Source: a virus (lineage: Duplodnaviria; Heunggongvirae; Uroviricota; Caudoviricetes). From it: 49,037 nt of DNA. The position numbers were made by a program, and so were the translations under genes. This document shows positions 3,096 to 40,100 of this stretch, piece after piece (positions within the stretch are counted from its first letter, which is position 1; each line of letters starts with the position of its first letter). The stretch lies in IMG/VR virus record IMGVR_UViG_2778261529_000004; one strand, 5' to 3'. The notes beneath the pieces were generated by a model. It did no database searches. It was not told where the DNA came from and worked only from the letters and a program-made list of their open reading frames with translations.

Positions 3096-6000
3096 TAAGC
3101 CAGATGCAGTGCTTCAAGACGACGAAGATCAAAGTCGTTTAATTCGTCGGTATAACTTTCGGTAATCGGTGCTGGCCAGTTGTTTGTCTCTAGAGCTTCG
3201 TTTATCTGGCGTAGCGTCCGGCGATATTCCTGTCGACCAAGTTCAAGGAGTTCCTGCGAGGCTTCCACGACTGCCACCCAGTGATAGCCAGCATCTTTGT
3301 TGACGAAGATCCAGAAAAATTTGTCCAGGTTTGCCACATCGCAATACATTGCGGCGCTGAGGTGATAATCACGCTCAATAATTTCACGGTGCAGGCGATC
3401 TTTAAGTCGTTCCTGCCGCACATAACCGAGGCTGACTGACTTCACGTCAGCGCAAATGCTTTCGTATGGCAGCCGGATTTCGATATCAGGACGGACCCTG
3501 ATTTCCAGCCCGGTTTCTTCATCAAACCCGAAATAGCTGATTTCAGATTTGCGATCCGGGTGGTTGAGTAGCCTTGCTGCATCGGTATTGTTTTGCAGTG
3601 CCGCGTGAATATTTTTTGCCTGTTCATACATATCCGGACTGATAAACGTTTTCCCGGCGTTTTCTTCTTGCTGGCGTTTTTGCCAGTCCTCCAGTGTCAC
3701 CAGTTCCGGGCGAATTTTCCGTGCGATTTCGGTTAATTGCTCTTTTGTGCCACTGATGTTGTAAGGCAAAGATTTAGCACGTTCTTTTTTTGCCAGTTCT
3801 GGATCTACAGTTTCAATTTGATCCAGAAGCTGCTCCCGTGCTCCACTGGTTTTCAACAGAGGAGGGAGGCTTGCGTTGTATTCTTTAATACAGGCTTTCA
3901 TTGCTGATGCTGTGTGTTTTTCCCCCTCAGGAATACGCCGAAATTCCACCGGAAGCGAACCGTAAAGGATGCCTGTTTCTTCGGCCCCAGCACTTACAGA
4001 CAGTGGCTGTATAAGAGTGCTGTTGTAGCTTTCGATCCACTCTTTCATCTGCTCTGGTGTCATCAGTGCTGGCAGACTGGCATTGTGTTTTTTAATGATG
4101 GCGATCAGTTCGTTAGAAGTAGTAACCACATATTCAGGAACCGGTACCGGAATGGCATATTCATCTGCGAATTTATCCGTTTCCAGAACATAGCTGTGAA
4201 TGATCCGCCCACGCAGCAGTGCATCACTTTCCTCGTTCGGAATAGTTCCGGCAATGTGCCGCCCGTGGTAATACATCAGGCTGATACGGGCATCCTTCAG
4301 CATCGTGCTGCTTATTCCGTTGGCGGAGTGATAAACCTCGTTCGGGAGGTTTTCATAGCGGCCTGGCTCGAAATATGACGGCCACATGATTTCAGTTGCT
4401 ACAGGAGCTGACGCTTCGCCAGTTTCATCACTGCAATTGCGATGCGGATCGCTGTCAGCATTCTCATTGTGCTGATGTTCAGCGCCTTCCATTTCCTCCG
4501 GATCTTTTTCCAGAGATTCATCCAGATTTTCTTCATTAAATGTTTCCTGATACGTTGCGTCGCCCATCGCCGCGCCACAATCAGGGCAGTTGCCCCCACC
4601 GCTCTGACCGCAGGCGGTGCAGACTTTTTCCGGTTCTTGTTGCTCTTCTGGTTCAGGCTGTTTCGTTTCTGGCTCGTTTTGTTGCGTATTTGGGCTGTTT
4701 TGTTCCGCTTTCTTGTCGTTCTGTTCCGTTTCTTGCTGGTTCTGGTTCACAGAGTCGAGGGTTTCAATCCCCTTAACCCATTTCGGATCGTTCGGGTCGC
4801 TAATCCCTTCAACAAATTCTCCGCGAGAGGCAGCCAGTAATTTGTCTGCATCGACAGGATTTTTGGGCGGAATGTTTTTCCGGGCTTCATGGAGTTCTGC
4901 CCGCAGTTTCTGATATTTCGCATCAACAGAATTTACCTGTGACTGAGCATCCAGCGGCTGCGTGTTCTGATGATGTTCAGTTGCATTCGGTTCCACTGTT
5001 TCAGCCGTTGCCTGTTCATCTGCCATTGCGCCAGATGGTTGTGGTTTTTCTTCATCGTCCTGTTTTCCTTCTTCTGTTACTCGCTGCGGCATCGGGGCAG
5101 AGGAGCGACCGCAGGCAATATCCACGATTTCCGGATCAGGGTTGGCATGATCGGTTTCAGTCAGTACTTTGTTCAGATATTCAGTGACGTGTGCGGGGAT
5201 GACCTCGATCCCAATTGGTGCTTCTTTCACGGACGCAACCACGATGGCGCGGGAATAATCCAGCCCGCCAGGCATGGTGATGAATTTGTCGCGGAAAACA
5301 GAAAAGGGTGGTTTATTTTCAGCGATAATTTCCTCAATGCGTTTAGCGTGTGCCGGATGAAGGTTATAGATGTCCACGTCCATTGAACGGGCCAGTACGC
5401 CAGTGGCTACATCGCGCGCCAGTGACGTCAGATCGTGGACGAAACCTTCGCCGCGATCGGTGAGGTTCCCGCCGCCAGCATTAGCACCAGAAGCCGTGCG
5501 AGTGATGCGTGAAACACGATTCCCTTTTCGCCATTCTTTTGTCAGAAGACCGCGATCAATGTGTTCGGTATCCAGCCAGGCTGAAATGAAATTCTTAAAT
5601 TCATAGGGCTGATGTTTTTTCGTGATAGAGAACACTGCCTTAATTGCATCAGTCAGGCGGAGCAGGGCGGCATTATCCAGAGTTGTCGGTTCTGCCATGC
5701 TGCGTATGGCCAACAGCAGATTCTGGACATAGCTGTTTTCCTGATCCATCTCAAGAGCAGTAATGTGTTTGCGTTGTTCACGGGTGGCATGATGCAGGTA
5801 TTTCCGATCCCCGGCTGCATACGTAAAAATGTGCAGAAGACGCTGTGTGAACCGCAAAGTGGCTACAGAGACTTCGCAATCCTGGCAATCCTCCTGGGCG
5901 TCTGCCTGCGCGTTTTCTTCCTGGCCTCCCGCCAGTTCTTTGGTTTCTTGAGCATTATCCTGGTGGTGAACGTCGTCTGGCGCTGCTCCCGGTTTTAGTT

Positions 6001-6262
6001 CCCAGGTCATGGAGTCTTTGCTGAGTTGATAGCGTTCACTCCAGGTAAAATCGATCTCACCTTCAGGGGGAAGGTCATTAACGACAGGAAAATTCGTGGC
6101 AACAGCTTTAAAATAGCTGCTCAGTTTTTTACCTGACTTAACGATCAGGTAGTCCAGAGTGGCACAGGTCGATTCAAAATCGTCGCTTGCCCACAGGACG
6201 ACGTCAGGTTCACCGGATGATTTTTTCGCTTTCCGTAACAGGAAGAGTGGTTTTGTGCTCAT
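3095..6262 (-). CDS. recE: RecE-like exonuclease VIII (PD-(D/E)xK C-terminal domain), 1055 aa
   Basis: Large ORF with a long acidic/Q-rich low-complexity middle, an internal CxxC...CxxC cluster ([19 protein letters not shown]) and a C-terminal nuclease-like domain; paired with recT. Confidence 0.65.
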
Positions 6263-9871: not shown

Positions 9872-9950
9872 GTCGAACCTCCTTTGGTTCTGTTGATTGG
9901 GGAATCACAGATTATATCCGGAGGAAGGTTCGACACCAGATGAGGCAATT

Positions 9951-11075
9951 ATGGTTAAGGCTAAAAATATGCCAAATCCCATGCCAAAAACTAAGGCAAA
10001 CAATGAGCCTTATCGCAAGGTAAAAATAACGATATGGGATGATCCCAAATTTAGGGCGTTATCTCCTCTGCCTCCAAGTGGACAGAGTTTGTTTATTTAT
10101 CTGCTGACCAGTCCATTTACCGGGATTATTCCTGGGTTGTTTAAAGCCGGGCGGGCAGCAATGGCTGAAGAGTTGGGGTGGGATATCGAAGCCTTTGACT
10201 TAGCCTTAGGCGAAGCCATGAATCTTGGCATGGTGAAAGCAGATATCAAAGCCAGAGTTTTTTGGCTCCCGAATGCTGCGAAACACAATCCGCCAAACTC
10301 GATAAATGTCATTAAATCTTGGGCAAAGGCATTCGCTTTAATTCCTGATTGTCCTCTCAAATGGGAGGCCAGGGAATCGCTGAGAGCCGCGTCCTATGGG
10401 GTTTCTGAGGCTTTGGGGATGGCATTCGATAAGGCAATCCCTTTGCCTGAGGATAAGCCTAAGGATAAGGCTAACGCTTTGTCATGCGGTATCCAGATAA
10501 CAGATAACAGATATATAAACCCCACACATAACGCGCGCGTGCGCGAGAGTGCTCCGGCCAGTGAGGCAAATGGCGTGCCGTTGCAGACAGCGGAACCTGA
10601 TTACCTGGAAGGCCTGAACGAACCCATCGGGAAATTTCCGATGACTGATGGCTGGCATCCGTCGCTGGATTTTCGACGGCGGGCAGCTCTGTGGGGAGTG
10701 GCTCTGCCGGAGCCGGAATTTACACCAGCTGAACTTGCCGCCTTCCGGGACTACTGGGCAGCGGAGGGGAAAGTTTTCACGCAGGTTCAGTGGGAGCAGA
10801 AATTCGCCCGTCACGTAAATCACGTCAGGGCGCAGGTTAAACCAGTCAGCAAGGGGGTGAACCATGCAGCAGCACCAGGTGGCACCGCATCACGGGCAGT
10901 TCAGGAAATTCGGGCAGCACGTGAGCAGTGGGAACGTGAAAACGGATTTATCAGCGACGGAAACGGCCTGGAAGTTGTGGGAACTCATGGGGGAGGTTTA
11001 TTCGAACCGCTGGACCCAGAAGAACGGGGCCGCACCTTCGAAGCTCTGGATTGCACAGATTGGTGCGATGACTGA
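9951..11075 (+). CDS. Putative replication initiation/replisome-organiser protein
   Basis: First large gene after the immunity region; carries iteron-like direct repeats in its middle (as lambda O does); start chosen at the ATG after TGAGG (track ORF from 9897). Confidence 0.45.
10449..10520. repeat. Iteron-like direct repeats followed by an AT-rich stretch (candidate origin)
   Basis: GAGGATAAGCCTAAGGATAAGGCTAAC followed by CCAGATAACAGATAACAGATATATAAA inside the putative replication gene. Confidence 0.35.
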
Positions 11076-11529
11076 GCAGCAAATCCGACAGGTCTGCCGC
11101 CAGTGCATGGACCGCTGCCGGACGGGTGAAACATGGCCTCCGGACCTGGCTGAGTTTGTGGCGCTGATTTCGGAAAGCGGGGCCAATCCATTCGGTCTGA
11201 CGGTGGATGCTGTGATGGAGGAGTACCGACGCTGGCGCAACAAGTCCTGGCGATACGACGGAAGCGATAAATACCCGTGGTCTCAGCCTGTGCTGTATCA
11301 CATTTGCCTTGAGATGCGCTCAAAGGGGATTGAGCGCCAGATGACCGAAGGGGAATTAAAACGGCTTGCAGAACGGCAGCTGACGAAATGGGCAAAGCAT
11401 GTTAGTAACGGCCTGAGCGTTCCGCCAGTCCGGCGACAACTGGCGGCACCCAAACGCCCGTCGGGGCCAACGCCAATTGAGTTACTGAAACAGGAATATG
11501 AACGCCGGAAAGCGGCTGGGTTTGTTTGA
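11068..11529 (+). CDS. Hypothetical protein, 153 aa
   Basis: ATG overlaps the upstream stop (ATGACTGA); track ORF extends to 10864 in a frame overlapping the upstream gene. Confidence 0.45.
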
Positions 11530-15267: not shown

Positions 15268-15423
15268 ATGAAGCAGCAAAAGGCGATGTTAATCGCCCTG
15301 ATCGTCATCTGTTTAACCGTCATAGTGACGGCACTGGTAACGAGGAAAGACCTCTGCGAGGTACGAATCCGAACCGGGCAGACGGAGGTCGCTGTCTTCA
15401 CAGCTTACGAACCTGAGGAGTAA
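15268..15423 (+). CDS. Hok/Gef-family type I toxin (51 aa)
   Basis: MKQQKAMLIALIVICLTVIVTALVTRKDLCEVRIRTGQTEVAVFTAYEPEE resembles Hok-family toxins (single TM, RK.LCE.R motif, AAF.AYE C-terminus); the in-frame track ORF extends upstream to 15211. Confidence 0.7.
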   Translation: MKQQKAMLIALIVICLTVIVTALVTRKDLCEVRIRTGQTEVAVFTAYEPEE

Positions 15424-16476: not shown

Positions 16477-16766
16477 TGGTGGATTTACGTAAAGCGGCGC
16501 GGGGCCAGATGTGCCAGGTCAGAATCCCTGGCTACTGCAATCACAATCCCGAAACTTCTGTGCTGGCGCATTACAGGTTGGCGGGAACGTGCGGAACGGC
16601 GATAAAGCCACACGATATGCAGGCAGCGATTGCCTGTAGCTCGTGCCACGATTTAATCGACGGGCGGGTAAAAACAAGCGATTACACCAAAGAAGAATTA
16701 CGCCTGATGCATGCAGAAGGTGTTTTTCGCACGCAAGAAATCTGGAGAAAGGAAGGTTATTTATGA
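16476..16766 (+). CDS. YbcO-like nin-region protein with Cys/His cluster, 96 aa
   Basis: MVDLRKAARGQMCQVRIPGYCNHNPETSVLAHYRLAGTCG...CSSCHDLIDGR resembles the remembered DLP12 YbcO. Confidence 0.55.
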   Translation: MVDLRKAARGQMCQVRIPGYCNHNPETSVLAHYRLAGTCGTAIKPHDMQAAIACSSCHDLIDGRVKTSDYTKEELRLMHAEGVFRTQEIWRKEGYL

Positions 16767-17305
16767 TTTACCCAACAAATACAGGCAAAAGCGGGGAACA
16801 CCTTCGTCTCACCACGCTGGAAAGTGTCTGGATTCAGGGAAAACTGCGCATGTGGGGGCGCTGGTCGTATATTGGCGGCGGTAAGACGGGGAATATGTTC
16901 AACCAGTTGTTGGCCTCTAAAAAGCTGACAAAAACGGCAATTAACGAGGCGCTCCGGAGGATGAAAAAAGCAGGTCTGAACAAGTCTGAACTTGAGGCTT
17001 TTTTGCGGGATATGATTAACGGTAAGCAAAAGAGCTGGCTGGCGCATTGTACTGATGCAGAGGCGTTATGTATTGATCGGGTCATAAGTGAGGTGCTGGC
17101 AGAGCATCCAGGATTGATTAGCGTCCTTCGTCAACGGTATGAGGGGCGGGGGATGACCAAACGCAAAATGGCTGAATTGCTAAATGATGCACACCCAGAG
17201 TGGTGTTTTAGCACATGCGAAAAGCGAATTGCTAATTGGTTGGCCGTTGCTGAGTATGCGCTATACATTCCTATGCGAGAATCATTCGCTCAAAAAACGG
17301 CTTGA
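16763..17305 (+). CDS. Late-gene antiterminator Q-like protein (about 180 aa)
   Basis: ATG overlaps the upstream stop (ATGA) with AAGGAAGG upstream; RMWGRWSYIGGG motif resembles Q-family antiterminators; sits just upstream of terminator and lysis genes. Confidence 0.55.
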   Translation: MIYPTNTGKSGEHLRLTTLESVWIQGKLRMWGRWSYIGGGKTGNMFNQLLASKKLTKTAINEALRRMKKAGLNKSELEAFLRDMINGKQKSWLAHCTDAEALCIDRVISEVLAEHPGLISVLRQRYEGRGMTKRKMAELLNDAHPEWCFSTCEKRIANWLAVAEYALYIPMRESFAQKTA

Positions 17306-17389
17306 TTTTTTACGCATAAACCGCTTCAATTTTGCTAAGCTTCGCAAAGCTGTATCGCGAGGTGAACCAAGCGCATGAACTTTGATACA

Positions 17390-17412
17390 ACCCGCCATTG
17401 AGCGGGTTTTTT
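17390..17412 (+). terminator. Intrinsic terminator downstream of Q (tR'-like)
   Basis: A-CCCGC-CATTGA-GCGGG-T hairpin followed by TTTTTT, about 85 nt after the Q-like stop. Confidence 0.55.
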
Positions 17413-17534
17413 ATGTCCGAAAAACGGCAGAGAACATAAAACGTGCTGGTGGTTGCGAATACTGGTCTTTCGGCTTGTATTTTTGTAAATCGATATATAC
17501 TTATCTTGTGACCAGTAATGTCAGGGCAATTGAT

Positions 17535-18278
17535 ATGAATGAAGCCTGTTCTGTTGTTTTTGTTCATTCCCCGTTTGTTGTGCTCTTTGAAGGAAAAGAG
17601 CTCTCTCTTGAAAGTGGTAGTGCACTTCTTGTCAGGGGGGGAGCTGGATCGTTATTGCCCTTTTCGGAATGTTTTCGGCGAATAAGTCTCAGTGAATCGA
17701 CAATTAGCCGTTACCTGTTGTGTGGAGACGAAAAACAGGATGTAGTTTTAGTCCGGCAAATACCACGATATCTTTGCGTGAGTTTTCCGAAGGCAGAATT
17801 GATGGGCATCCTGATTGATTATCTTTGTGAGGAAAAGATTCATACGGACAATTTAGCGGAAATGCTTTCCTTTTCGTGTCTGGCGTTTTTCTCATCAGAG
17901 AAGATGTTTTCGTCGTTTCTGACCGCGTGTATTAGCAATATTAGTGACAGGCTTAGTGCATTGTTTCGTACGGACATTGCAGCAAACTGGACTCTGAGAG
18001 ATGTGTCTTCGCGGTTATGTATCAGTGAAAGTTTGTTAAAAAAAAGACTGAAAGAAGAAGGCACCTGTTTCAGTGAGTTGTTGCTTACAGAGAGAATGAG
18101 AATGGCAGCAATGCTGTTGAATCAATCTCGTTGCGCCATCAACAGAATCGCTGCTCAGTGCGGCTATAATTTTACATCTTATTTTATCAGCGTATTCAGG
18201 AGTTATTTTGGTGTTACACCGGCAGGTTACAGGATGGCTGCATTCAATGAGATGAGTTTAAGTGTTACTCAAGAATAA
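17535..18278 (+). CDS. AraC/XylS-family transcriptional regulator (moron), about 247 aa
   Basis: C-terminal AraC-type HTH (WTLRDVSSRLCISESLLKKRLKEEG ... INRIAAQCGYNFTSYFISVFRSYFGVTPAGYR); start chosen at MNEACSV; relatively AT-rich. Confidence 0.75.
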   Translation: MNEACSVVFVHSPFVVLFEGKELSLESGSALLVRGGAGSLLPFSECFRRISLSESTISRYLLCGDEKQDVVLVRQIPRYLCVSFPKAELMGILIDYLCEEKIHTDNLAEMLSFSCLAFFSSEKMFSSFLTACISNISDRLSALFRTDIAANWTLRDVSSRLCISESLLKKRLKEEGTCFSELLLTERMRMAAMLLNQSRCAINRIAAQCGYNFTSYFISVFRSYFGVTPAGYRMAAFNEMSLSVTQE

Positions 18279-18412
18279 TTGAATTTTGCACTCATTGAAA
18301 ACAGGCTCGCTGCGGCGGGCCTTTTTCATATCCGCGCCGCGCCCGGCGCACATCACATCAGATAACACCACACAAAAGGCATCTGCGGGTGCCTTTGACA
18401 GGGTGTTTTTAC

Positions 18413-18434
18413 GGGCCGCTGGAGGCCCTTTTTT
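18413..18434 (+). terminator. Hairpin plus T-run just upstream of the holin RBS
   Basis: GGGCC-GCTGGA-GGCCC followed by TTTTTT; a second hairpin (AAAGGCA...TGCCTTT) lies just upstream. Confidence 0.45.
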
Positions 18435-18453
18435 ATTTGTGGGAGGAAAAAGC

Positions 18454-18846
18454 ATGTCTGAACCCTTATCCGGTTCCGGTACGGCTGTGGCGCTCGGCGG
18501 GGCGACGGTATTCGGGCTGTTTACCGGAACGGATTTCGGGATTGTGTTTGGTGCGTTCGCCGGGGCGTTATTTGTGGCAACGATGCCGCAGGCGCTTTCA
18601 GCCTGGCGTGTGGCGGCGCATTTTCTGGTGTCGTTCATTATCGGCGTGCTGGGCGCAGAGGTTCTGGCATCCTGGCTGGTAAAGCATACAGGGTTTGACG
18701 GTGCGCCTGTCGACGCACTGTGTGCAGTGCTGGTGTCAGTGGTGTCGGTGAAGATTCTCTCGTTCATCCACCAGCAGGATATTGCATCACTGGTGTCCGG
18801 CCTGTTCTCCCGTCTGCGGGGTGGAGGAGGCGGCAATGTTAAGTAA
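18454..18846 (+). CDS. Putative holin (three hydrophobic segments), 130 aa
   Basis: RBS GGGAGG then 7 nt then ATG; hydrophobic segments and a charged Gly-rich C-terminus; directly upstream of the endolysin. Confidence 0.55.
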   Translation: MSEPLSGSGTAVALGGATVFGLFTGTDFGIVFGAFAGALFVATMPQALSAWRVAAHFLVSFIIGVLGAEVLASWLVKHTGFDGAPVDALCAVLVSVVSVKILSFIHQQDIASLVSGLFSRLRGGGGGNVK

Positions 18847-19111
18847 CCTTCCCGGATTGCTGAATGTAGCGTTATGCACGGTTATCGTGCTGACGCTCTT
18901 TTTTTATCGTCGCCGTGATTCCAGACATAAACCGCTGATGTCATGGCTGGCGTGGCTGCTGATGCTGCTGTATGCCTTTGCGCCCCTCAGCTATCTGTGT
19001 GGTCGCCCGTTAGCAACGGGCTGGCTGGAAGTGTTTTTTAACCTGCTGTTCTGCGTGCTGGTGATACGCGCACGCGGGAACGTCACAAAAATCTTTCCAT
19101 TGTTGAGGTGA
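18836..19111 (+). CDS. Second lysis-associated membrane protein (holin/antiholin-like), 91 aa
   Basis: Overlaps the holin stop; two to three hydrophobic segments; lies between holin and endolysin. Confidence 0.4.
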   Translation: MLSNLPGLLNVALCTVIVLTLFFYRRRDSRHKPLMSWLAWLLMLLYAFAPLSYLCGRPLATGWLEVFFNLLFCVLVIRARGNVTKIFPLLR

Positions 19112-19113
19112 AT

Positions 19114-19491
19114 ATGTCGGGTAAATTCAGATTCAGCCGTCGCAGTGAAAAAAATCTGGAGGGCGTTAAACCACAGCTGGTTGCTGTCGTTCGCCGTGCG
19201 CTGGAGCTGACGGAGGTTGATTTCGGTATTACGGAAGGGCTGCGCACGAAAGAACGCCAGAAACAGCTGGTCGCGGAAGGGAAAAGCCAGACCATGAACA
19301 GCCGCCACCTGACCGGTGATGCGGTGGATGTTGTTGCCTGGGTTGGCAGCCAGGTGTCATGGGACTGGCCTCTGTACGAGAAAATCGCGCAGGCATTTAA
19401 GAAGGCTGCCGCAGAGCTGGGAACTGCCATCGAATGGGGCGGGGACTGGAAAACACTGAAAGACGGGCCTCACTTTCAGTTGAAACTCTGA
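19114..19491 (+). CDS. Endolysin, peptidase M15-like (about 125 aa)
   Basis: Small enzyme-like ORF in the lysis position with His/Asp-containing motifs (SRHLTGDAVDV ... GGDW) resembling M15 peptidase endolysins; RBS GAGGTG upstream. Confidence 0.6.
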   Translation: MSGKFRFSRRSEKNLEGVKPQLVAVVRRALELTEVDFGITEGLRTKERQKQLVAEGKSQTMNSRHLTGDAVDVVAWVGSQVSWDWPLYEKIAQAFKKAAAELGTAIEWGGDWKTLKDGPHFQLKL

Positions 19492-19505
19492 TAACCAGGT
19501 GTGTT

Positions 19506-19724
19506 ATGAGCAGAAAACACTGGACACACAGAATGCCGCGAACGGCGGCGAAATGGGCACTGGTAGCGATACTGGTGCCTTTTTTCCTGGTGGGATGCGT
19601 TAGCCTGGATAAGGCGCGCCAGCTTTTCGATACGGCTTCTCAGGTCTGCGAAATTGTTGACGGTGTTCGGCAGTGTCTGCAGAACTTATCGCCTGTAAGA
19701 GCAGAATATTTTGCTGAAAAATGA
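19506..19724 (+). CDS. Putative lipoprotein (spanin-like or Bor-like), 72 aa
   Basis: Signal peptide with lipobox (LVPFFLVGC); immediately downstream of the endolysin. Confidence 0.45.
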   Translation: MSRKHWTHRMPRTAAKWALVAILVPFFLVGCVSLDKARQLFDTASQVCEIVDGVRQCLQNLSPVRAEYFAEK

Positions 19725-19859
19725 AGGATGCGCCATCGTCTGGAAAGCACGAAATTCTGTGTTTGTGGCTACTCAATAAAATAAATTCTTTCTTTCGCTG
19801 CGAATACTCAAATGTTGATCAGCGCCCGGTGCGGCGGCGGGCTTCGATATCAGGAGACG

Positions 19860-20159
19860 ATGATGGAAAAAACAAAAAACAAACCGATTGTAATTGGTGC
19901 TGATGCTGCTCCGTTTAAGTTTGAGTTGTCTCAACTGGTGGAGATGCGCATCAGTGATGAATGGGGGGAGGTTAAAGCCCGCGCGCAGTATGCGGATGGC
20001 GAAAACCAGTACTTGATCCACTACAAAGCAGCTGATGGTCGCGCCACGACGGAGTGGTTTGGTGAGTCAATGCTGGAAGCAACAGAAGATGATTGTCATC
20101 CTGGTTGTCCGGTATTTGCCGGTATGAAATTACCGGAAGGCGCAGTTGTTACTGAGTAA
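19860..20159 (+). CDS. Hypothetical protein (about 99 aa)
   Basis: ORF after the lysis genes; start chosen at MMEKTKNK after GGAGACG. Confidence 0.35.
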   Translation: MMEKTKNKPIVIGADAAPFKFELSQLVEMRISDEWGEVKARAQYADGENQYLIHYKAADGRATTEWFGESMLEATEDDCHPGCPVFAGMKLPEGAVVTE

Positions 20160-20282
20160 CAGGCATTACAGCAGCCCTTCAGTGTGAGGGGCTGCGATAA
20201 TGTCAAAGCTCGTTATCAGCACCCGCCGCGCACCCAGCGCACTGGCCGATAGCGGGCTTTTTTATTCATAAAGCGAGGCTGT

Positions 20283-21071
20283 ATGAGCGAGAAATTGAAG
20301 ATCGTCTATCGCCCGTTGCAAAAACTGTCTCCGTATGCGCACAACGCCAGGACACACAGCCCTGAGCAGGTGGCACAACTGGTAGAAAGCATTAAGCAAT
20401 TCGGCTGGACCAATCCGGTGCTGATTGACGAAAAGGGCGAAATTATTGCTGGTCACGGTCGCGTGATGGCGGCTGAGGTGCTCAAAATGGATTCTGTTCC
20501 GGTCATTGTTCTGTCTGGCCTGACGGATGATCAGAAAAAGGCGTACCGCCTGGCAGATAATCGCCTGCCGCTCAACGCTGGCTGGGATGAAGAACTGTTA
20601 CGGGTGGAACTGTCGGAGCTAATCAATGCTGATTTTGATATCTCCCTGACAGGATTCAGCCCAACAGAAATTGATGAACTGTTGATGGAAGTTTTGCCAG
20701 GTACCGGAAATGAGGAGGAGCAGTATACGACGAAAATTGATACGCCTGTTTATGAGCCGTCGGGCGATAAACCGGATATCAGTGAACTGTACGACGATAC
20801 GAAAACTCAGGAGCTGATCAGCCGGATACGTTCGGCGTCCCTTGAGCCTGATATCGAAAAATTCCTCCTGTGCGCGGCAGAACGCCACACGGTGTTTAAT
20901 TTCAGCAGAATTGCGGATTATTACGCTCACGCCCCCGCTGAAATTCAGCGCCTTTTTGAGGAGTCGGCGCTGGTGATCATTGATTATCAGCAGGCTATTG
21001 AAAATGGATTTGTCCGGATGACGCAGCACATGGTGGAGATCATGCATGGCGGGGAGGAGGAATATGCGTGA
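20283..21071 (+). CDS. ParB-like N-terminal nuclease-domain protein, 262 aa
   Basis: N-terminal ParB/Srx-type motifs (KIVYRPLQKLSPYAHNARTH ... IIAGHGRVMAA); upstream of the terminase genes. Confidence 0.7.
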   Translation: MSEKLKIVYRPLQKLSPYAHNARTHSPEQVAQLVESIKQFGWTNPVLIDEKGEIIAGHGRVMAAEVLKMDSVPVIVLSGLTDDQKKAYRLADNRLPLNAGWDEELLRVELSELINADFDISLTGFSPTEIDELLMEVLPGTGNEEEQYTTKIDTPVYEPSGDKPDISELYDDTKTQELISRIRSASLEPDIEKFLLCAAERHTVFNFSRIADYYAHAPAEIQRLFEESALVIIDYQQAIENGFVRMTQHMVEIMHGGEEEYA

Positions 21072-21996
21072 TGATTTTTGCGCCTTTATTCTGACTCACG
21101 GGCGACCGGACAAAGTTCTGACTTACCGGACGTTGCGTCGTGCTGGCTATACCGGGAAAATTTTTATCGTTGTTGATGATGAAGATAAGACACGGCATCA
21201 GTACATAGTTGAATTTGGTGAACAGGTGCTGGTGTTTTCCAAAGCCGATATAGCCAGTCGTTTTGACGAAGCCGATAATTTCGGTGATCGCCGCTCAATT
21301 TTTTACGCCCGTAATGCCTGTTTCGACCTGGCAAAACTGGTCGGGTGTAAATACTTCATTCAGCTCGATGATGATTATCACGAGTTCCAGTTTCGGGTGG
21401 ATCGCAACTATGACCAGGCCTATTTCCCGATAAGAAAACTGGATGCGATCCTTTCTGAAATGCTGGCGTACTACGAATCAATACCTGCGCTTTCCATCGC
21501 TATGTCGCAGGGCGGGGATTTTCTTGGTGACAATGGCGGCCATGCTTCGTGGGTGAAACGCAAGGCAATGAACAGCTTTATCTGTTCGGTTGATCGACCG
21601 TTCTCATTCATGGGGCGCATTAACGAGGATGTGAATACGTACACGAATCTCGGTCGCTGTGGTGAATTGTTTATGACGATCGGTGCTGTCCAGTTAGGGC
21701 AGAAACAGACGCAGAAAAACAGCGGCGGAATGACCGAGCTGTATCTGGATTCCGGAACCTACGTTAAAAGTTTTTACTCCGTCATGTATGCGCCCTCGTG
21801 CGTAAAAATCTCACTGATGGGGGCCAGCCATAAACGCATTCACCATCAGGTCACTTGGAACAACGCTGCAGTAAAAATCCTTCACGAAAAATACAGGAAG
21901 AAGACACCCTGCATATCAATGGGGGTGACAAATGATTCCGTATTCGAAAGTCGAGTCTCTGGCAGCGTGCCGGATGACTGCACAACAAATCGCTGA
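21064..21996 (+). CDS. Hypothetical protein with weak GT-A (family-2 glycosyltransferase)-like motifs, about 310 aa
   Basis: ATG overlaps the ParB-like stop (ATGCGTGA) after GGAGGAGG; motifs LTHGRPD and IVVDDED resemble GT2 N-terminal and DxD motifs; assignment is speculative. Confidence 0.45.
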   Translation: MRDDFCAFILTHGRPDKVLTYRTLRRAGYTGKIFIVVDDEDKTRHQYIVEFGEQVLVFSKADIASRFDEADNFGDRRSIFYARNACFDLAKLVGCKYFIQLDDDYHEFQFRVDRNYDQAYFPIRKLDAILSEMLAYYESIPALSIAMSQGGDFLGDNGGHASWVKRKAMNSFICSVDRPFSFMGRINEDVNTYTNLGRCGELFMTIGAVQLGQKQTQKNSGGMTELYLDSGTYVKSFYSVMYAPSCVKISLMGASHKRIHHQVTWNNAAVKILHEKYRKKTPCISMGVTNDSVFESRVSGSVPDDCTTNR

Positions 21997-22183
21997 CGTT
22001 CTGGATGTTGATCTGAACCGACTGAAAGAAAATCGGGAAGCAATGACAGATTTTTACGCATCCATCCGTAAGGGCAGAGCGAAAGGTGAAGCCGAACTAC
22101 GGGCGGCATTGTTTAAGCTTGCCAGAAAAGGGGATGCCTTTGCCCTGCGTGAACTACTCAGGGTGGATAAAAATCAGGACTAA
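21932..22183 (+). CDS. Small hypothetical protein, possible HTH (83 aa)
   Basis: ORF with GGGGG-spaced RBS; overlaps the 3' end of the upstream gene, so start is uncertain. Confidence 0.3.
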   Translation: MIPYSKVESLAACRMTAQQIADVLDVDLNRLKENREAMTDFYASIRKGRAKGEAELRAALFKLARKGDAFALRELLRVDKNQD

Positions 22184-22186
22184 CTA

Positions 22187-23278
22187 ATGAGCAGACCGGA
22201 CTGGGGGGCGTTGCAGCAGGAATATATTGCTGAATACACCCGCTCCGGTGTATCTCCGGTGGCATGGTGTGAGGCAAGGGGACTGAATTACGCAACAGCC
22301 CGTCGTTACATCAAAAAACCTCCGAAAAATGCGCAGACAGAAATGCGCAAAACTGCGCAACAAAGTGCGCAGAAAAAATCTGCGCAGACTGCGCAAAAGC
22401 GGAACGGAAAATCTCAGAAAAAAAAGCCAGTATCCGATGCGTGCCTGAATGAGGGCGACGCGGAGGAATTTTCGTTCTGCCCCGATGAATTCGGCATTTC
22501 TGACCAGCAGGCTAAGTTTGCGATGCTTGTTGCTCAGGGGAAAAAGCCGACAGAGGCATACCGACTGGCTGGTTATGAGGGGCAAGGTGCGACAGCTAAC
22601 AGCAACGCCAGCCGTATGCTTAGAAATGCCAGGGTTTATCGTGCTATCAGCTACTTCCGCAATCAGTATCAGAAACGCTATACCGCAGACCTGGATTTAC
22701 TGGTGAGTCAGTTGATGGCTATTGTCCAGGCCGACCCCAATCAGTTGGCACAATTTCGCCGTGTTAACTGCCGTTATTGCTGGGGCGAGAATCATCTCTA
22801 CCAGTGGCGTGATATTGCAGAATTCGATAAGGCAGCGGCACAGGCCTCCAGAGATGGCAAACCCGAGCCGGAATATGGAGGCCTCGGCTTTGTTGATAAC
22901 GCCATACCCAATCCGGATTGTCCGAAGTGCTGCGGTGAGGGAACGGGACAGCTTTATATGGCTGATACCACTCTGCTTGATGGGGATGCGCGACAATTAT
23001 ATGCAGGGGCAAAGCTCGGGAAATTTGGTGTTGAGATCCTGCTGGAGGATAAGGCTGCCGCCCGGCGCGAACTTATCAAGCTGATAATGGCGACGAAAGG
23101 AAGTTCTGCTGGTGGTGCAACTGACAGTCGCAATGATCTGGAGCTTGAAGGACTGAGGCTTCGCAACGAAAAGCTGCGCACTGAGATTGAAAACCTCAAA
23201 AAAGGCGTGGGTGGTGAGAATAACGAAATAATTATCCACAACTCTCTGCCGATGCCGGGAGTGGATAATGTCGATTGA
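22187..23278 (+). CDS. Terminase small subunit, 363 aa
   Basis: HTH-like segment (QQAKFAMLVAQGKKPTEAYRLAGYEG); immediately upstream of and overlapping the large terminase; contains a TGCGCA repeat cluster. Confidence 0.65.
   Translation: MSRPDWGALQQEYIAEYTRSGVSPVAWCEARGLNYATARRYIKKPPKNAQTEMRKTAQQSAQKKSAQTAQKRNGKSQKKKPVSDACLNEGDAEEFSFCPDEFGISDQQAKFAMLVAQGKKPTEAYRLAGYEGQGATANSNASRMLRNARVYRAISYFRNQYQKRYTADLDLLVSQLMAIVQADPNQLAQFRRVNCRYCWGENHLYQWRDIAEFDKAAAQASRDGKPEPEYGGLGFVDNAIPNPDCPKCCGEGTGQLYMADTTLLDGDARQLYAGAKLGKFGVEILLEDKAAARRELIKLIMATKGSSAGGATDSRNDLELEGLRLRNEKLRTEIENLKKGVGGENNEIIIHNSLPMPGVDNVD
22323..22397 (+). repeat. Cluster of six TGCGCA(A/G) direct repeats (candidate pac/terminase-binding site)
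   Basis: AATGCGCAGACAGAAATGCGCAAAACTGCGCAACAAAGTGCGCAGAAAAAATCTGCGCAGACTGCGCAAAAG within the small-terminase coding region. Confidence 0.4.
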
Positions 23279-24596
23279 AATCTACCTCCCAAAACCTCAT
23301 GAGGGGCAAATAGCTGCATGGACGGCGGCAATAGAGGAACGCTTCCACGCGGTATGCTGTGGTCGTCGCTGGGGTAAAACGGTGATGCTGGTAAACATCG
23401 CTACCAGTTTCGCTACGCGGAAATTTGCCGTTCCTACCACCGGGCAACTTATCGCGGGTAGGGTGGGGATTTTTACCGCACAATACCGCCAGTACCAGGA
23501 AATCTGGGATGAAATTAGCGCCGTTCTGCAACCGCTGATCCTCAGCCAGTCAAAAAATGAAAAGCGCATTATTCTCCGTAATGGGGGGCGCATCGACTTT
23601 TGGGTAACGGACAATAACAAACTGGCCGGGCGTGGGCGTAAATATCACGCTGTGCTGATTGATGAGGCCGCATTCACTAAATCGCCGGAAATGCTCGAGG
23701 AAATCTGGCCCCGCGCTATACGCCCGACGCTTGTTGATTACCGTGGCTGTGCGTGGGTATTTTCCACACCAAACGGTATCGACGAGAGCAATTTTTTCTA
23801 CGCGATATGCCACGATGAATCCCTGGGATTTGTCATGCACCATGCGCCAACTTCATCGAATCCGTATATTCCGAAAGAAGAACTGGAGGAAACGGAGAAG
23901 AAATCCGATCCGCGTGTCTGGCAGCAGGAATATCTTGCCGAGTTCGTGGACTGGTCCAAAGACGCGTTACTCGATGTCGATAAGCTGCTGGTGGACGGTC
24001 AGCCGATTGAGATGCCGCCGTACTGCGACATGATTTTCGCAGTGATGGATACGGCGCTGAAAGGCGGGACCGAAAATGATGGTACTGGCGTGTTGTATTT
24101 CGCTTATGAGTCAACGTATTCGGACGAGCCAAAACTGACGATTATTGACTGGGATGTGACGCAAATTAAAGCGTCATTGCTTCCTGAATATATCCCCGGC
24201 GTTTATGAAAACCTCGAGCGCCTCGCGAAATTATGCCGTCCGCGTCTGGGCTGCCAGGGAATTTTTATGGAAGACGCCGCGATGGGGGCAATCCTCAACC
24301 AGAAGGCGGAAACCGAAGGCTGGGATATGACGCCGATTAAATCGGCACTAACCAGCAAAGGTAAAGAAGAACGGGCGGTGATGGCATCCAGCTACCACTA
24401 TCAGGGGATGTGCAAAATCGTCCGGGAGGCTTACGACAAGACCGTTTCATTCAAACGTACCACCGCAAACCACCTCATTAAACAAATCGCCGGGTTCCAC
24501 CTGGCAGACAAAGACGCGCATAAACGTGCTGATGACCTTTTCGATTGTTATACCTATGGATTGATTATCGCGCACGGTAATTACGCGGCGTTGTAA
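23268..24596 (+). CDS. Terminase large subunit, 442 aa
   Basis: Walker A (CCGRRWGKT) and Walker B (HAVLIDEAA) motifs; overlaps the small terminase stop. Confidence 0.85.
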   Translation: MSIEIYLPKPHEGQIAAWTAAIEERFHAVCCGRRWGKTVMLVNIATSFATRKFAVPTTGQLIAGRVGIFTAQYRQYQEIWDEISAVLQPLILSQSKNEKRIILRNGGRIDFWVTDNNKLAGRGRKYHAVLIDEAAFTKSPEMLEEIWPRAIRPTLVDYRGCAWVFSTPNGIDESNFFYAICHDESLGFVMHHAPTSSNPYIPKEELEETEKKSDPRVWQQEYLAEFVDWSKDALLDVDKLLVDGQPIEMPPYCDMIFAVMDTALKGGTENDGTGVLYFAYESTYSDEPKLTIIDWDVTQIKASLLPEYIPGVYENLERLAKLCRPRLGCQGIFMEDAAMGAILNQKAETEGWDMTPIKSALTSKGKEERAVMASSYHYQGMCKIVREAYDKTVSFKRTTANHLIKQIAGFHLADKDAHKRADDLFDCYTYGLIIAHGNYAAL

Positions 24597-39951: not shown

Positions 39952-40100
39952 ATCACAGTTTTATGATAAAACTTTTACCTTGGTTTGGAGTGCTGTAGAG
40001 AGATATTTTAGGGGGGCGAGTAATTTTCTAAGCTGGAGCATATTGACATATATTATTTCGGATTTGCAAAATACATATTGTTACCATGGAGGAGACAAGC

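What the first reader, a model, noticed from the sequence alone, without database searches (positions are those of the whole stretch)
20283..21996. ParB-like nuclease-domain protein translationally coupled to a GT-A-like protein upstream of the terminase
The two genes overlap (ATGCGTGA) and sit immediately before the packaging genes. The second protein shows motifs reminiscent of family-2 glycosyltransferases (THGRPD, IVVDDED) but no TM segments, so it is unlikely to be a GtrB-type seroconversion enzyme. The pair could be a DNA-modification or anti-restriction module, or a packaging accessory; the function is open.
Basis: inference. Interest (0 to 1): 0.45.

Follow-up and report, generated by a model that had tools for sequence, protein, structure and literature searches.

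The report
ParB-partnered phage glycosyltransferase cassette before terminase
Two overlapping late genes of an E. coli Rac-like prophage encode a ParB-type nucleotide-binding protein and its dedicated sugar-transferring enzyme of the phage DNA-glycosylating (TAGT) family; the pair recurs just before the packaging genes in viruses of many bacteria and one archaeon, yet the phage lacks the enzymes that normally make the DNA base such enzymes decorate.

Summary
ORF1 (20283-21071, 262 aa) has a ParB/Srx-fold N-terminal domain. ORF2 (21064-21996, 310 aa) overlaps it by 8 nt (ATGCGTGA), has no TM segment and models as a GT-A glycosyltransferase. It sits two genes upstream of TerL.

ORF2 is not a generic family-2 GT. 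It belongs to Pfam PF20691, 'TET-associated glycosyltransferase' (TAGT), the family of the T2/T6 beta-glucosyl-HMC-alpha-glucosyltransferase.

The pair is a conserved two-gene cassette:
- In 56 of 60 genome loci from many phyla, and in 32 of 32 viral contigs fetched through the ParB domain alone, this TAGT clade follows a protein with the same C-terminal domain (CTD) and Tyr-rich linear motif.
- 50 of 55 junctions overlap, by 8 or 11 nt.
- Tandem CTD-TAGT duplications and a natural TAGT::ParB::CTD fusion exist.
- The closest relatives of the ParB domain are fused to N6/N4 DNA methyltransferases.

No ORF in the 49-kb prophage is a TET/JBP, thymidylate-synthase-like or C5-methyltransferase enzyme.

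Best reading (about 0.5): a ParB-assisted, post-replicative DNA glycosyltransferase acting before packaging, with an unknown acceptor. Main rival: protein glycosylation. I rate it a new variant of a known kind, of moderate to high interest.

The parts
20283..21071 (+). ParB-like partner gene (262 aa). It corresponds to the full-length version of E. coli K-12 YnaK. The protein is acidic (pI 4.6, net charge -23).
   Evidence: ORF. Pfam ParB_N and phrog_620. pI. K-12 ynaK matches only window 20239-20536, at 91% nt identity.
20283..20687 (+). ParB/Srx-fold nucleotide-binding domain (NBD, residues ~1-135). It carries N21-A-R23-T-H25 (nt 20343-20357) and A-G-H-G-R60 (nt 20448-20462) in place of the canonical GERR box II. 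No HTH DNA-binding domain was detected.
   Evidence: The profile aligns to Noc/ParB, with IIAGHGR over IIAGERR. Foldseek hits Noc, ParB, PadC, KorB, Srx and SerK over about 135 columns.
20724..20795 (+). Conserved Tyr-rich linear motif in a predicted disordered linker: Y148-T-x-K-I-x-x-P-x-Y157-E-P ... L-Y170-D.
   Evidence: Y148 and Y157 are at least 90% conserved across 49 partner proteins from many phyla. Y148, T149, K151, P155, Y157, P159 and Y170 are invariant in the alignment. The linker has pLDDT below 45. The motif is retained in CTD-only proteins such as P0302.
20793..21068 (+). Helical C-terminal domain (CTD, residues ~171-262), the part that always accompanies this TAGT clade. It matches no Pfam family and no PDB structure.
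   Evidence: The CTD is conserved at 40-57% identity across phyla, more than the NBD in distant hosts. It lies immediately upstream of the TAGT in 56/60 genome loci and in 32/32 viral loci. It forms 1201 clusters in 1.84e9 representatives. It is not covered by Foldseek hits.
21051..21071 (+). Coupling junction: an SD-like GGAGGAGGAA (21051-21060), the ATG of the TAGT gene (21064) and the TGA of the partner gene (21069-21071). The overlap is 8 nt.
   Evidence: Sequence. The -8 nt (19x) and -11 nt (24x) overlaps recur in 55 junctions.
21064..21996 (+). Soluble GT-A glycosyltransferase of the TAGT family (310 aa). Invariant R14 (nt 21103-21105), D38/D41 within the DDED motif, residues 38-41 (nt 21175-21186), D102-D103-D104-Y105 (nt 21367-21378), N187-E188-D189...Y193 (nt 21622-21642), GGMT 221-224 and H260-H261. 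The last ~25 residues are an E. coli-specific disordered extension.
   Evidence: PF20691 at E 2.2e-34 and 119.6 bits (cutoff 27.5), and phrog_842 at 2e-102. Alignment A1. AF2 pTM 0.73. Foldseek PDB hits are GT-A enzymes. BFVD hits are TAGT-domain proteins at E 9e-24.
21932..22183 (+). Small basic ORF (83 aa; PGAP calls a 69-aa version). It overlaps the 3' end of the TAGT gene and resembles part of a small terminase subunit. It marks the start of the packaging module, and its membership of the cassette is not shown.
   Evidence: phrog_309 'terminase small subunit', E 1.7e-22. PGAP CDS.
22187..24596 (+). TerS (22187..23278) and TerL (23268..24596), the invariable downstream context of the cassette.
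   Evidence: Terminase_2 and Terminase_6N. TerL genes of four different Pfam families lie within three genes downstream in the related loci.

Best explanation
The two genes form one functional unit, expressed from the late operon of a Rac-like lambdoid prophage.

Components:
- A glycosyltransferase of the TAGT family (GT-A fold, DxD-type catalytic centre), which uses a nucleotide-activated sugar.
- An acidic ParB/Srx-fold protein that is its dedicated partner. The partner has an NTP-binding domain, no DNA-binding HTH, a Tyr-rich linear motif and a helical CTD.

Proposed mechanism:
1. The partner's motif and CTD bind the transferase (inferred).
2. The ParB domain acts as an NTP-gated module that licenses or holds the enzyme on double-stranded phage DNA. 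This is by analogy with ParB176, which is required for the phage thymine dioxygenase 5mYOX176 to act on dsDNA.
3. The DNA is thereby glycosylated after replication and before or during packaging, which protects the genome from nucleases in the next host (inferred).

The phage has no enzyme that makes 5-hydroxymethyl-pyrimidines. The acceptor is therefore not the usual 5hmC, 5hmU or glucosyl-5hmC made by the phage, and it remains unknown.

Shown here: family membership, fold, obligate genetic pairing, conserved overlap, natural fusions, absence of an hm-base pathway, and shared ancestry of the ParB domain with DNA methyltransferase fusions.

Inferred: physical complex, DNA as acceptor, timing, and the protective role.
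For: Enzyme identity:
- PF20691 and phrog_842 hits.
- Invariant R14, DDD 102-104 and ED 188-189...Y193. These match the R...DDD...EDY/F signature reported for phage GT-A enzymes that glycosylate 5hmC in DNA and for the trypanosome base-J glucosyltransferase JGT (bioRxiv 10.1101/2023.12.21.572611, read).
- GT-A fold.

Pairing:
- A homologue of the partner lies directly upstream of the TAGT in 56/60 genome loci spanning Proteobacteria, Bacteroidota, Firmicutes, Planctomycetota, Acidobacteriota and others.
- In isolated phages the pair occurs in Lactobacillus phages and in Haloarcula hispanica tailed virus 2, where the two genes are annotated side by side.
- An independent sample fetched through ParB-domain peptides only gave 32/32 CTD-bearing proteins with this TAGT and 0/48 CTD-less relatives with it.
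- 50/55 junctions overlap.
- L047 carries CTD-TAGT-CTD-TAGT, and L027 carries TAGT-CTD-TAGT.
- A TAGT::ParB-NBD::motif::CTD fusion (P0389) occurs on three independent metagenome contigs, followed by a second TAGT and TerL.

DNA as target:
- The closest NBD relatives (51-66% identity, same invariant residues) are fused to N6_N4 DNA methyltransferases in 30/48 loci.
- A ParB-like protein with NBD and CTD but no DNA-binding domain is an experimentally proven activator of a DNA-modifying enzyme on dsDNA (PMC13229309).
- The TAGT is basic (pI 8.0-8.6) and the partner acidic.

Sugar donor:
- Some relatives insert a His_Phos_1 + cytidylyltransferase-like gene between the two genes.
- Others add a second TAGT, and one locus has a TAGT fused to a methyltransferase domain.
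- Epimerase and NTP_transferase genes occur nearby in a few loci.

Position and expression:
- The pair lies after the lysis genes and before TerS/TerL in the window.
- In related loci it sits upstream of TerL genes of four Pfam families.

Self-sufficiency:
- No TET_JBP, thymidylate-synthase-like or C5-MTase protein occurs among all 65 ORFs of the window.
- None is annotated in the sister prophage or in the complete 38-kb and 32-kb genomes of phages phi jlb1 and c5.
Against: - No canonical DNA base offers the hydroxyl group that every characterised DNA glycosyltransferase uses, so a DNA acceptor would need chemistry with no precedent.
- One member of PF20691 (GREB1) glycosylates a protein (PMC7968844).
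- The ParB domain is missing from five loci that still have CTD and TAGT (L010, L021, L027, L032, L047), so DNA delivery by ParB cannot be essential everywhere.
- The partner is strongly acidic and has no recognisable DNA-binding domain.
- Mutating the NTP-site residues did not abolish activity in the only studied ParB-activator system, and no stable complex was trapped there.
- The model of the partner is poor (pLDDT 61), and no complex model could be evaluated.
Confidence: 0.5

Rival explanations
1. Protein glycosylation. The TAGT transfers sugar to a protein rather than to DNA. The acceptor would most plausibly be the conserved Tyr/Thr motif (Y148-T-x-K-I-x-x-P-x-Y157-E-P) in the disordered linker of its own partner, in a glycogenin-like or GREB1-like way. 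A packaging or virion protein is the other candidate.
For: - GREB1, a PF20691 member, O-GlcNAcylates ER-alpha (PMC7968844).
- The only features that invariably accompany this TAGT clade are the partner's motif and CTD.
- The motif lies in a disordered segment, as modification sites often do.
- The ParB NBD is dispensable in five loci.
- Each duplicated TAGT in L047 has its own CTD.
- Glycogenin is among the Foldseek hits, although only as a generic GT-A.
Against: - A conserved linear motif in a linker fits a docking peptide equally well.
- The closest NBD relatives are fused to DNA methyltransferases.
- The catalytic signature matches the DNA-acting phage GT-A enzymes and JGT.
- No rationale is known for glycosylating a ParB-like protein next to the terminase.
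- Translational coupling and enzyme-partner fusions more often mark stoichiometric complexes.
Confidence: 0.2
2. Classical TAGT chemistry on a pre-existing hydroxymethyl-pyrimidine or glucosyl-5hmC. The base would be supplied by something outside the cassette, such as an unrecognised dioxygenase, a host activity or the DNA of a co-infecting T-even-like phage.
For: - All biochemically characterised phage members of the family act on 5hmC or on glucosyl-5hmC (PMC13216743 and PMC13390438; preprint).
- The PHROG family name is beta-glucosyl-HMC-alpha-glucosyltransferase.
- ParB annotations are reported as associated specifically with either 5mYOX or ThyS pathways.
Against: - No TET_JBP, ThyA-like or C5-MTase domain occurs in any of the 65 ORFs of the window.
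- None is annotated in the sister prophage or in two complete small phage genomes.
- No such family recurs among four upstream and three downstream genes in about 40-50 diverse loci.
- The hosts range from E. coli to Haloarcula, with no shared hm-base.
- Similarity to the T-even-type enzyme is remote: 14% identity and Foldseek E 1e-6, and no T2/T6 hit in tblastn at 1e-10.
Confidence: 0.08
3. The pair has a non-modification role tied to packaging or to small molecules. One version is a ParB-like (nuclease or site-marking) accessory of the terminase, with the GT acting on a nucleotide or sugar metabolite, for example by consuming UDP-sugars or altering a signalling nucleotide. Another is a structural role without catalysis.
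For: - The cassette always abuts TerS/TerL.
- In phiP27 the same slot holds an HNH endonuclease next to cos.
- In phage c5 the pair lies about 80 nt from cos.
- The ParB/Srx fold includes small-molecule kinases (SerK) and sulfiredoxin.
- A cytidylyltransferase-like gene is inserted in three loci.
Against: - The cassette accompanies terminases of four different Pfam families. That argues for a shared genomic slot rather than a specific terminase partnership.
- The catalytic residues of the GT are invariant across phyla, so catalysis is under selection.
- No nuclease motif was identified.
- The link between the NBD and DNA methyltransferases points to DNA modification.
Confidence: 0.1
4. GtrB-like seroconversion or cell-envelope glycosyltransferase that modifies O-antigen or teichoic acid.
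For: Prophage-encoded GT-A enzymes such as TarP and GtrB exist. TarP was the best PDB match for related phage GT-A enzymes in the preprint read.
Against: - There is no TM segment and no GtrA/GtrC or flippase neighbours.
- The gene is in the late operon.
- The same pair, at 43-60% identity, occurs in Gram-negative, Gram-positive and archaeal viruses, whose hosts share no envelope polymer.
Confidence: 0.02

Closest known systems
TAGT family (Pfam PF20691): T2/T6 beta-glucosyl-HMC-alpha-glucosyltransferase and the GT-A DNA glycosyltransferases of phage C5-MT/5mYOX (TET) gene clusters (Iyer et al. 2013; Pyle et al. 2024)
   Same: - Clear Pfam membership (119.6 bits) and GT-A fold.
- The R...DDD...ED..Y catalytic signature.
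- Phage-encoded, soluble, and sometimes present as two successive paralogues.
   Different: - No 5mYOX/TET, thymidylate-synthase-like enzyme, alpha-GT or beta-GT in the genome.
- It forms a separate, unusually conserved clade: 45-60% identity across phyla, but only about 14% to a T-even-type enzyme.
- It is obligately preceded by a ParB-like/CTD partner and abuts the terminase.
- Its acceptor is unknown.
ParB-dependent phage thymine dioxygenases (5mYOX176/ParB176; PNAS 2026, PMC13229309)
   Same: - A ParB-like protein with an NTP-binding domain, an unstructured linker and a C-terminal domain, but no DNA-binding domain.
- It is encoded next to a DNA-modifying enzyme. In that system it is needed for action on dsDNA and is specific for its cognate enzyme.
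- The N-x-R and G-x-x-R site layout resembles that of the window protein.
   Different: - The partnered enzyme here is a glycosyltransferase, not an Fe/2OG dioxygenase.
- Sequence homology between the two CTDs could not be tested because the ParB176 sequence is not held.
- No biochemical data exist for this pair.
ParB_N::N6_N4 DNA methyltransferase fusion proteins of phages and prophages (PHROG 498; PNAS 2025, PMC12704722)
   Same: - The N-terminal ~135 residues are close homologues: 51-66% identity with the same invariant N21, R23, H25, G57-H-G-R60 and D92-N93.
- They are enriched in prophages.
   Different: - There the effector is fused and methylates canonical A or C.
- Here the effector is a separate glycosyltransferase, linked through the motif and CTD and through translational coupling.
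GREB1 (animal protein with a TAGT-type domain)
   Same: Same Pfam family. PGAP even names the window protein 'GREB1-related protein'.
   Different: GREB1 is a 1949-aa eukaryotic cytoplasmic protein shown to O-GlcNAcylate ER-alpha. It has no ParB partner and no link to DNA packaging.
Other ParB/Srx-fold partners of DNA-modifying enzymes: DpdB with DpdA (7-deazaguanine insertion), DndB, IbrB with IbrA (cited from my own knowledge, not tested here)
   Same: Same general logic: a ParB-fold NTPase encoded beside a DNA-modification enzyme.
   Different: The effector enzymes are unrelated and the ParB subfamilies differ. None involves a glycosyltransferase.
E. coli K-12 YnaK (Rac cryptic prophage, b1365)
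   Same: YnaK is the first ~85 residues of this very gene (91% nt identity, window 20239-20536) at the same prophage position.
   Different: K-12 keeps only that fragment. The CTD and the TAGT gene are deleted, and the neighbouring ydaY is unrelated to the TAGT.

Membership tests
TAGT (Pfam PF20691, TET-associated glycosyltransferase) | Significant match to the family profile above the curated threshold | tested here: met
   E 2.2e-34, 119.6 bits against a 27.5-bit cutoff, covering residues 8-222. phrog_842 at E 2e-102 over residues 1-298.
TAGT (Pfam PF20691, TET-associated glycosyltransferase) | GT-A (nucleotide-diphospho-sugar transferase) fold | tested here: met
   AF2 model has pTM 0.73, and residues 1-150 have mostly pLDDT above 88. 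All top Foldseek PDB hits are GT-A enzymes such as GpgS, K4CP, ColGalT1 and SpsA. BFVD top hits are TAGT-domain proteins with TM 0.74-0.81.
TAGT (Pfam PF20691, TET-associated glycosyltransferase) | Catalytic signature R...DDD...ED-Y/F described for phage GT-A DNA glycosyltransferases and JGT | tested here: met
   R14, D102-D103-D104, E188-D189 and Y193 are invariant in 30 homologues. The motif is as described in the preprint read. The correspondence was judged by inspection, not by a joint alignment with the published enzymes.
TAGT (Pfam PF20691, TET-associated glycosyltransferase) | Genomic association with a TET/JBP (5mYOX) dioxygenase, or with hmC synthesis plus an alpha- or beta-GT | tested here: not met
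   None of the 65 ORFs of the window has a TET_JBP, thymidylate-synthase or C5-MTase domain. None is annotated in the sister prophage or in phages phi jlb1 and c5. None recurs in the flanks of about 40-50 diverse loci. Published surveys also report many 'solitary' TAGTs, so this feature names the family rather than strictly defining it.
TAGT (Pfam PF20691, TET-associated glycosyltransferase) | Transfers a sugar to 5hmC, 5hmU or glucosyl-5hmC in DNA | not testable with these tools
   This needs enzyme assays or nucleoside LC-MS.
ParB/Srx superfamily (Pfam PF02195 ParB_N) | ParB N-terminal NTP-binding fold with a box II arginine | tested here: met
   PF02195 at 28.8 bits against a 26.3-bit cutoff. 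The profile aligns to Noc and ParB structures with AGHGR over AGERR. Foldseek hits Noc, ParB, PadC, KorB and Srx at E 3e-6.
Canonical partition ParB (ParABS) | Central HTH DNA-binding domain, an N-terminal ParA-binding motif and a neighbouring parA gene | tested here: not met
   No HTH family was detected in the protein. TIGR00180 scores 36.7 bits, below its 58.45-bit cutoff. No ParA-type ATPase occurs among the window ORFs. Foldseek covers only about 135 columns.
ParB-type activators of phage DNA-modifying enzymes (as ParB176 for 5mYOX176) | NBD plus linker plus C-terminal domain, no DNA-binding domain, encoded next to the cognate enzyme | tested here: met
   Domain layout. Adjacency and overlap. 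The class is as described in PMC13229309.
ParB-type activators of phage DNA-modifying enzymes (as ParB176 for 5mYOX176) | Required for the enzyme's activity on dsDNA, with cognate specificity | not testable with these tools
   Only genetic proxies are available: 1:1 CTD-TAGT pairing in the tandem duplication of L047, and a natural fusion.
ParB-type activators of phage DNA-modifying enzymes (as ParB176 for 5mYOX176) | Sequence homology of the CTD to 5mYOX-associated ParBs | not tested
GtrB-type seroconversion glycosyltransferase | Membrane anchoring (TM helices) and gtrA/gtrC neighbours | tested here: not met
   Maximum KD19 hydropathy is 1.08. The neighbours are lysis and terminase genes.

The most novel reading that the evidence does not exclude
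This clade of TAGT enzymes, together with its ParB-like/CTD partner, glycosylates DNA that contains only canonical bases, without a hydroxymethyl-pyrimidine intermediate. That would be a previously unknown kind of DNA modification. It would be made by a self-sufficient two-gene cassette carried by prophages in about a quarter of complete E. coli genomes and by viruses of many bacterial phyla and of haloarchaea.
Probability: 0.25. Interest if true: 0.85.

Novelty: new variant of a known kind. Interest (0 to 1): 0.6.

Why it matters
Every DNA glycosyltransferase characterised so far needs a hydroxymethylated pyrimidine made by another phage enzyme. This cassette belongs to the same enzyme family and has the same catalytic signature, but it comes with a dedicated ParB-type partner and no such pathway.

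If it modifies DNA, it defines either a new acceptor chemistry or a new way of recruiting a sugar transferase to DNA. It would also extend the newly discovered role of ParB-fold proteins as activators of DNA-modifying enzymes from dioxygenases to glycosyltransferases. If it instead glycosylates its partner protein, it would be a bacterial-virus counterpart of GREB1.

Either answer is cheap to obtain:
- The genes are in about 29% of complete E. coli genomes (16% full-length).
- They are the full-length form of the unexplained K-12 gene ynaK.
- They occur in small, culturable phages such as Lactobacillus c5 and phi jlb1.

Published surveys have noted 'solitary' TAGTs and GT genes next to ParB-like and terminase genes. 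They left both observations unexplained.

Tried and rejected
- GtrB/seroconversion reading: rejected because there is no TM segment, the neighbours are wrong, and the pair is found in archaeal and Gram-positive viruses.
- K-12 ydaY as the remnant of the TAGT gene: I assumed this at first. BLAST shows that only ynaK matches the window (20239-20536), and the YdaY protein sequence bears no resemblance to the TAGT.
- Search for a hidden hm-base pathway: all 65 picked ORFs of the window were scanned with Pfam and none was found.
- Search for a recurrent third gene: Pfam scans of 150 upstream and 146 downstream neighbour proteins found none apart from terminase and portal genes.
- NCBIfam: no family for the TAGT, the small ORF or the neighbouring unknowns.
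- PDB by sequence: no solved TAGT relative.
- Foldseek of the partner model: only the NBD matched. The CTD stays unassigned, and that model is weak (pLDDT 61).
- The afdb50 fold library was not available.
- Iyer et al. 2013, the paper that defined TAGT, is not held.
- ParB176 sequences are not in the held text or in the listed supplementary tables, which I did not open, so CTD homology to 5mYOX-associated ParBs is untested.
- A fused-chain complex prediction was considered and dropped. The tool returns no inter-residue confidence, so an interface could not have been judged.
- The promoter/terminator scan of 19400-22400 gave nothing specific to the cassette.

Caveats on the locus statistics:
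- My gene calls in related loci are simple longest-ORF picks.
- The genome loci were fetched through TAGT peptides of this clade, so they say nothing about other TAGT clades.


Full report
**Setting.**
The window is a complete Rac-like lambdoid prophage of E. coli. Its gene order is as follows.

| Coordinates | Gene or function |
|---|---|
| 1..1236 (-) | integrase |
| 1992..6262 (-) | RecT and RecE |
| about 8060 | repressor region |
| 9897..11529 | DnaT/P-type replication genes |
| 16643..17305 | Q-like protein |
| 17382..18278 | AraC-type regulator |
| 18286..19491 | holins and M15 endolysin |
| 20283..21996 | the two genes of the finding |
| 22187 onward | TerS, TerL, portal, head and contractile-tail genes |

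A sister prophage annotated by PGAP carries intR, xisR, ralR, recET, kilR and ydaT.

**The observation.**
- ORF1 is 20283..21071 (262 aa). ORF2 begins at the ATG at 21064, inside ATGCGTGA, whose TGA ends ORF1. ORF2 runs to 21996 (310 aa).
- A GGAGGAGGAA run lies 4 nt upstream of that ATG, and homologues start at the same MRDDF.

**What the two proteins are: ORF2.**
- ORF2 matches Pfam PF20691, 'TET-associated glycosyltransferase', at 119.6 bits (threshold 27.5), and PHROG 842 at 2e-102.
- PF20691 is the family of the T2/T6 beta-glucosyl-HMC-alpha-glucosyltransferase. It is predicted to have a GT-A fold and to be a sister group of GT2 (PMC13216743; PMC13390438).
- The AlphaFold2 model (pTM 0.73; mostly above pLDDT 88 for residues 1-150) retrieves only GT-A enzymes from the PDB. 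From the viral structure library it retrieves TAGT-domain proteins at E 9e-24. A T-even-type enzyme appears only at E 1e-6 and 14% identity.
- Thirty homologues share invariant R14, D102-D104, E188-D189 and Y193. This is the R...DDD...ED-Y/F signature reported for phage GT-A enzymes that glycosylate 5hmC in DNA and for the trypanosome base-J glucosyltransferase JGT.

**What the two proteins are: ORF1.**
- ORF1 has a ParB/Srx-fold N-terminal domain (NBD). Its box II reads AGHGR where partition ParBs have GERR.
- It has no HTH domain, and the phage has no ParA.
- After the NBD come a disordered acidic linker and a helical C-terminal domain (CTD) with no Pfam or PDB match.

**The pair is a conserved cassette: occurrence.**
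- Megablast finds the 1.7-kb segment in 1566 of 5426 complete E. coli genomes, full-length in 889.
- PGAP names the genes 'ynaK: ParB/Srx family N-terminal domain-containing protein' and 'GREB1-related protein'.
- K-12 ynaK is the first ~85 codons of ORF1. K-12 has lost the rest.

**The pair is a conserved cassette: genome loci.**
- Scanning one genome per species with TAGT peptides gave 60 loci. They come from Proteobacteria, Bacteroidota, Firmicutes, Planctomycetota, Acidobacteriota, Saccharibacteria and others, at 45-60% identity outside the Enterobacterales. That is unusually high for a phage gene.
- With local HMMs, the CTD lies immediately upstream of the TAGT in 56 of them. The four exceptions are two contig ends and two truncated TAGT copies.
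- The CTD is better conserved than the NBD in distant hosts.
- A linear motif in the linker, Y148-T-x-K-I-x-x-P-x-Y157-E-P...L-Y170-D, is nearly invariant.
- Five loci lack the NBD altogether but keep the motif and CTD.

**The pair is a conserved cassette: variants.**
- L047 has two tandem CTD-TAGT units, L027 has TAGT-CTD-TAGT, and L043 has two TAGTs after one partner.
- L045 has a TAGT fused to a methyltransferase domain plus a second TAGT.
- A phmmer search of 1.84 billion representatives with the CTD found 1201 clusters. Among the 150 listed, most are 250-300-aa proteins with the CTD at the C-terminus.
- One of the listed proteins, P0389, is a TAGT::ParB-NBD::motif::CTD fusion. It was seen on three independent metagenome contigs, and on the one 16.6-kb contig that extends beyond it it is followed by a second TAGT, TerL and a portal gene.

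**The pair is a conserved cassette: junction and an independent test.**
- 50 of 55 junctions overlap, 24 by 11 nt and 19 by 8 nt.
- As an independent test I fetched 80 viral contigs through two NBD peptides only.
- All 32 whose NBD protein carries the CTD have this TAGT downstream. In 29 it is adjacent.
- In the other 3 a histidine-phosphatase + cytidylyltransferase-like gene is inserted between the two genes.
- None of the 48 CTD-less relatives has it. One of them has a distant TAGT clade.

**Context.**
- Within three genes downstream lie TerL genes of four Pfam families (Terminase_6N 23 hits, Terminase_3 13, TerL_ATPase 3, GpA 2), together with TerS and portal genes.
- No family recurs among the four upstream genes.
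- In the cos phage c5 the pair is ORF1/ORF2, about 80 nt from cos. In phi jlb1 it precedes terS.
- In phiP27, which shares the upstream ORF with the window, the same slot holds an HNH endonuclease and cos.
- Only 34 of 50,697 isolated-phage records carry this clade. They include Haloarcula hispanica tailed virus 2, where the two genes are annotated side by side.

**The missing acceptor pathway.**
- All 65 ORFs picked in the window were scanned with Pfam. None has TET_JBP, a thymidylate-synthase-like domain, a C5-methyltransferase or a second glycosyltransferase.
- None is annotated in the sister prophage or in the complete genomes of phi jlb1 (38 kb) and c5 (32 kb).
- The cassette therefore works without a phage-made hydroxymethyl-pyrimidine.
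- A 2026 survey counted 288 of 753 GT-encoding phage genomes with 'solitary' TAGT homologues and left their function undefined.
- The NEB survey noted GT genes beside ParB-like and terminase genes without following this up.

**Why DNA is still the favoured target.**
- The nearest relatives of the NBD (51-66% identity, same invariant residues) are fused to N6/N4 DNA methyltransferases in 30 of 48 loci. This NBD subfamily is therefore a module that accompanies DNA-modifying enzymes.
- A 2026 study showed that a phage ParB-like protein of the same layout (NBD, linker, CTD, no DNA-binding domain) is required for its neighbouring thymine dioxygenase to act on dsDNA, with cognate specificity (PMC13229309).
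- The catalytic signature is that of the DNA-acting GT-A enzymes.
- Late expression next to the packaging genes fits post-replicative marking of progeny DNA (inference).
- Extra TAGT paralogues and inserted nucleotide-sugar-type genes fit the building of a glycan.

**Why this is not settled.**
- Canonical DNA has no hydroxyl acceptor of the kind used by every known DNA glycosyltransferase.
- GREB1, a family member, glycosylates a protein.
- The only constant companions of this TAGT are the partner's disordered Tyr/Thr motif and CTD. They could form a docking element or the acceptor itself.
- The ParB domain is dispensable in some phages.
- The partner is strongly acidic (pI 4.6), while the TAGT is basic (pI 8.0-8.6).
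- I could not evaluate a complex model, and the partner model is weak.

**Probabilities.**

| Reading | Probability |
|---|---|
| ParB-assisted DNA glycosylation | about 0.5 |
| Protein glycosylation | about 0.2 |
| Packaging or small-molecule role | about 0.1 |
| Dependence on an external hm-base | about 0.08 |
| Envelope glycosylation | about 0.02 |

**Comparison with what is known.**
- The enzyme is a member of PF20691 by sequence, fold and motifs. It fails the contextual feature that named the family.
- The partner is a member of the ParB/Srx superfamily but not a partition ParB.
- The pair works like the ParB-dependent 5mYOX systems in genetic logic, but with a different enzyme class.

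**Verdict.**
I rate this a new variant of a known kind: a ParB-partnered TAGT cassette that is self-sufficient and has an unknown acceptor. It is widespread and easy to test. Interest: 0.6.

Noticed in passing
window 22330-22395 (inside the 5' part of terS, 22187..23278): Six copies of TGCGCA lie within 66 nt, spaced 9-15 nt apart. That is 6 of the 23 copies in the whole 49-kb window. The array could be a TerS-binding or pac-type site.
   Followed up: partly
window 40086-41261 (+): A 391-aa ORF with a type I restriction enzyme R-subunit N-terminal domain (HSDR_N) sits in the middle of the baseplate and tail-fibre genes. PGAP names it 'type I restriction endonuclease' in the sister prophage. 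It looks like a moron or defence gene.
   Followed up: partly
window 17382-18278 (+): An AraC-family regulator lies between the Q-like antiterminator and the holin. This is the slot where phiP27 carries stx2e and tRNA genes, so it is probably a lysogenic-conversion cargo gene.
   Followed up: no
window 20100-20282: A roughly 160-nt stretch spanning the 3' end of ORF 19812..20159 and the intergenic region before the cassette is 91-98% identical in phiP27, phage cdtI, phi458 and an Actinobacillus phage. It contains GC-rich hairpins followed by a T-run (GCGGGCTTTTTT at about 20253-20264), so it may be a terminator or conserved late-operon element.
   Followed up: no
window 21932-21996 and L001 6001-6258: The E. 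coli TAGT has a disordered C-terminal extension of about 25 residues, absent from homologues, that overlaps the next ORF by 65 nt. Separately, PGAP annotates the intact 262-aa ParB-like gene as a truncated 'ynaK' pseudogene in at least one genome, NZ_AP045177.1. This is probably an artefact of naming after the K-12 fragment.
   Followed up: partly
window 13381-14864 (-) and 12758-13231 (+): Two overlapping minus-strand ORFs (184 and 310 aa) have no Pfam or NCBIfam match. They sit where the sister prophage carries 'beta family protein' and 'sce7726 family protein', so they may be a swapped defence cassette. The adjacent 157-aa ORF has only weak SAM-methyltransferase similarity.
   Followed up: partly
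L092 1419-2387, L093 2942-3895, L095 6734-7690 (viral contigs): A ~320-aa gene with a histidine phosphatase domain and a cytidylyltransferase-like domain is inserted between the ParB-like partner and the TAGT. This suggests that some phages make a special nucleotide-activated donor for this enzyme.
   Followed up: partly
L101 6001-7396 (viral contig): A short ParB NBD protein without the CTD is followed directly by a TAGT of a different clade (PF20691 at E 2e-47, but only 4e-15 to my clade HMM). ParB-TAGT pairing may therefore extend beyond the clade studied here.
   Followed up: no
window 15211-15420 (+): A hok/gef-family toxin ORF (hokD-like) lies in the nin-like region of the prophage.
   Followed up: no
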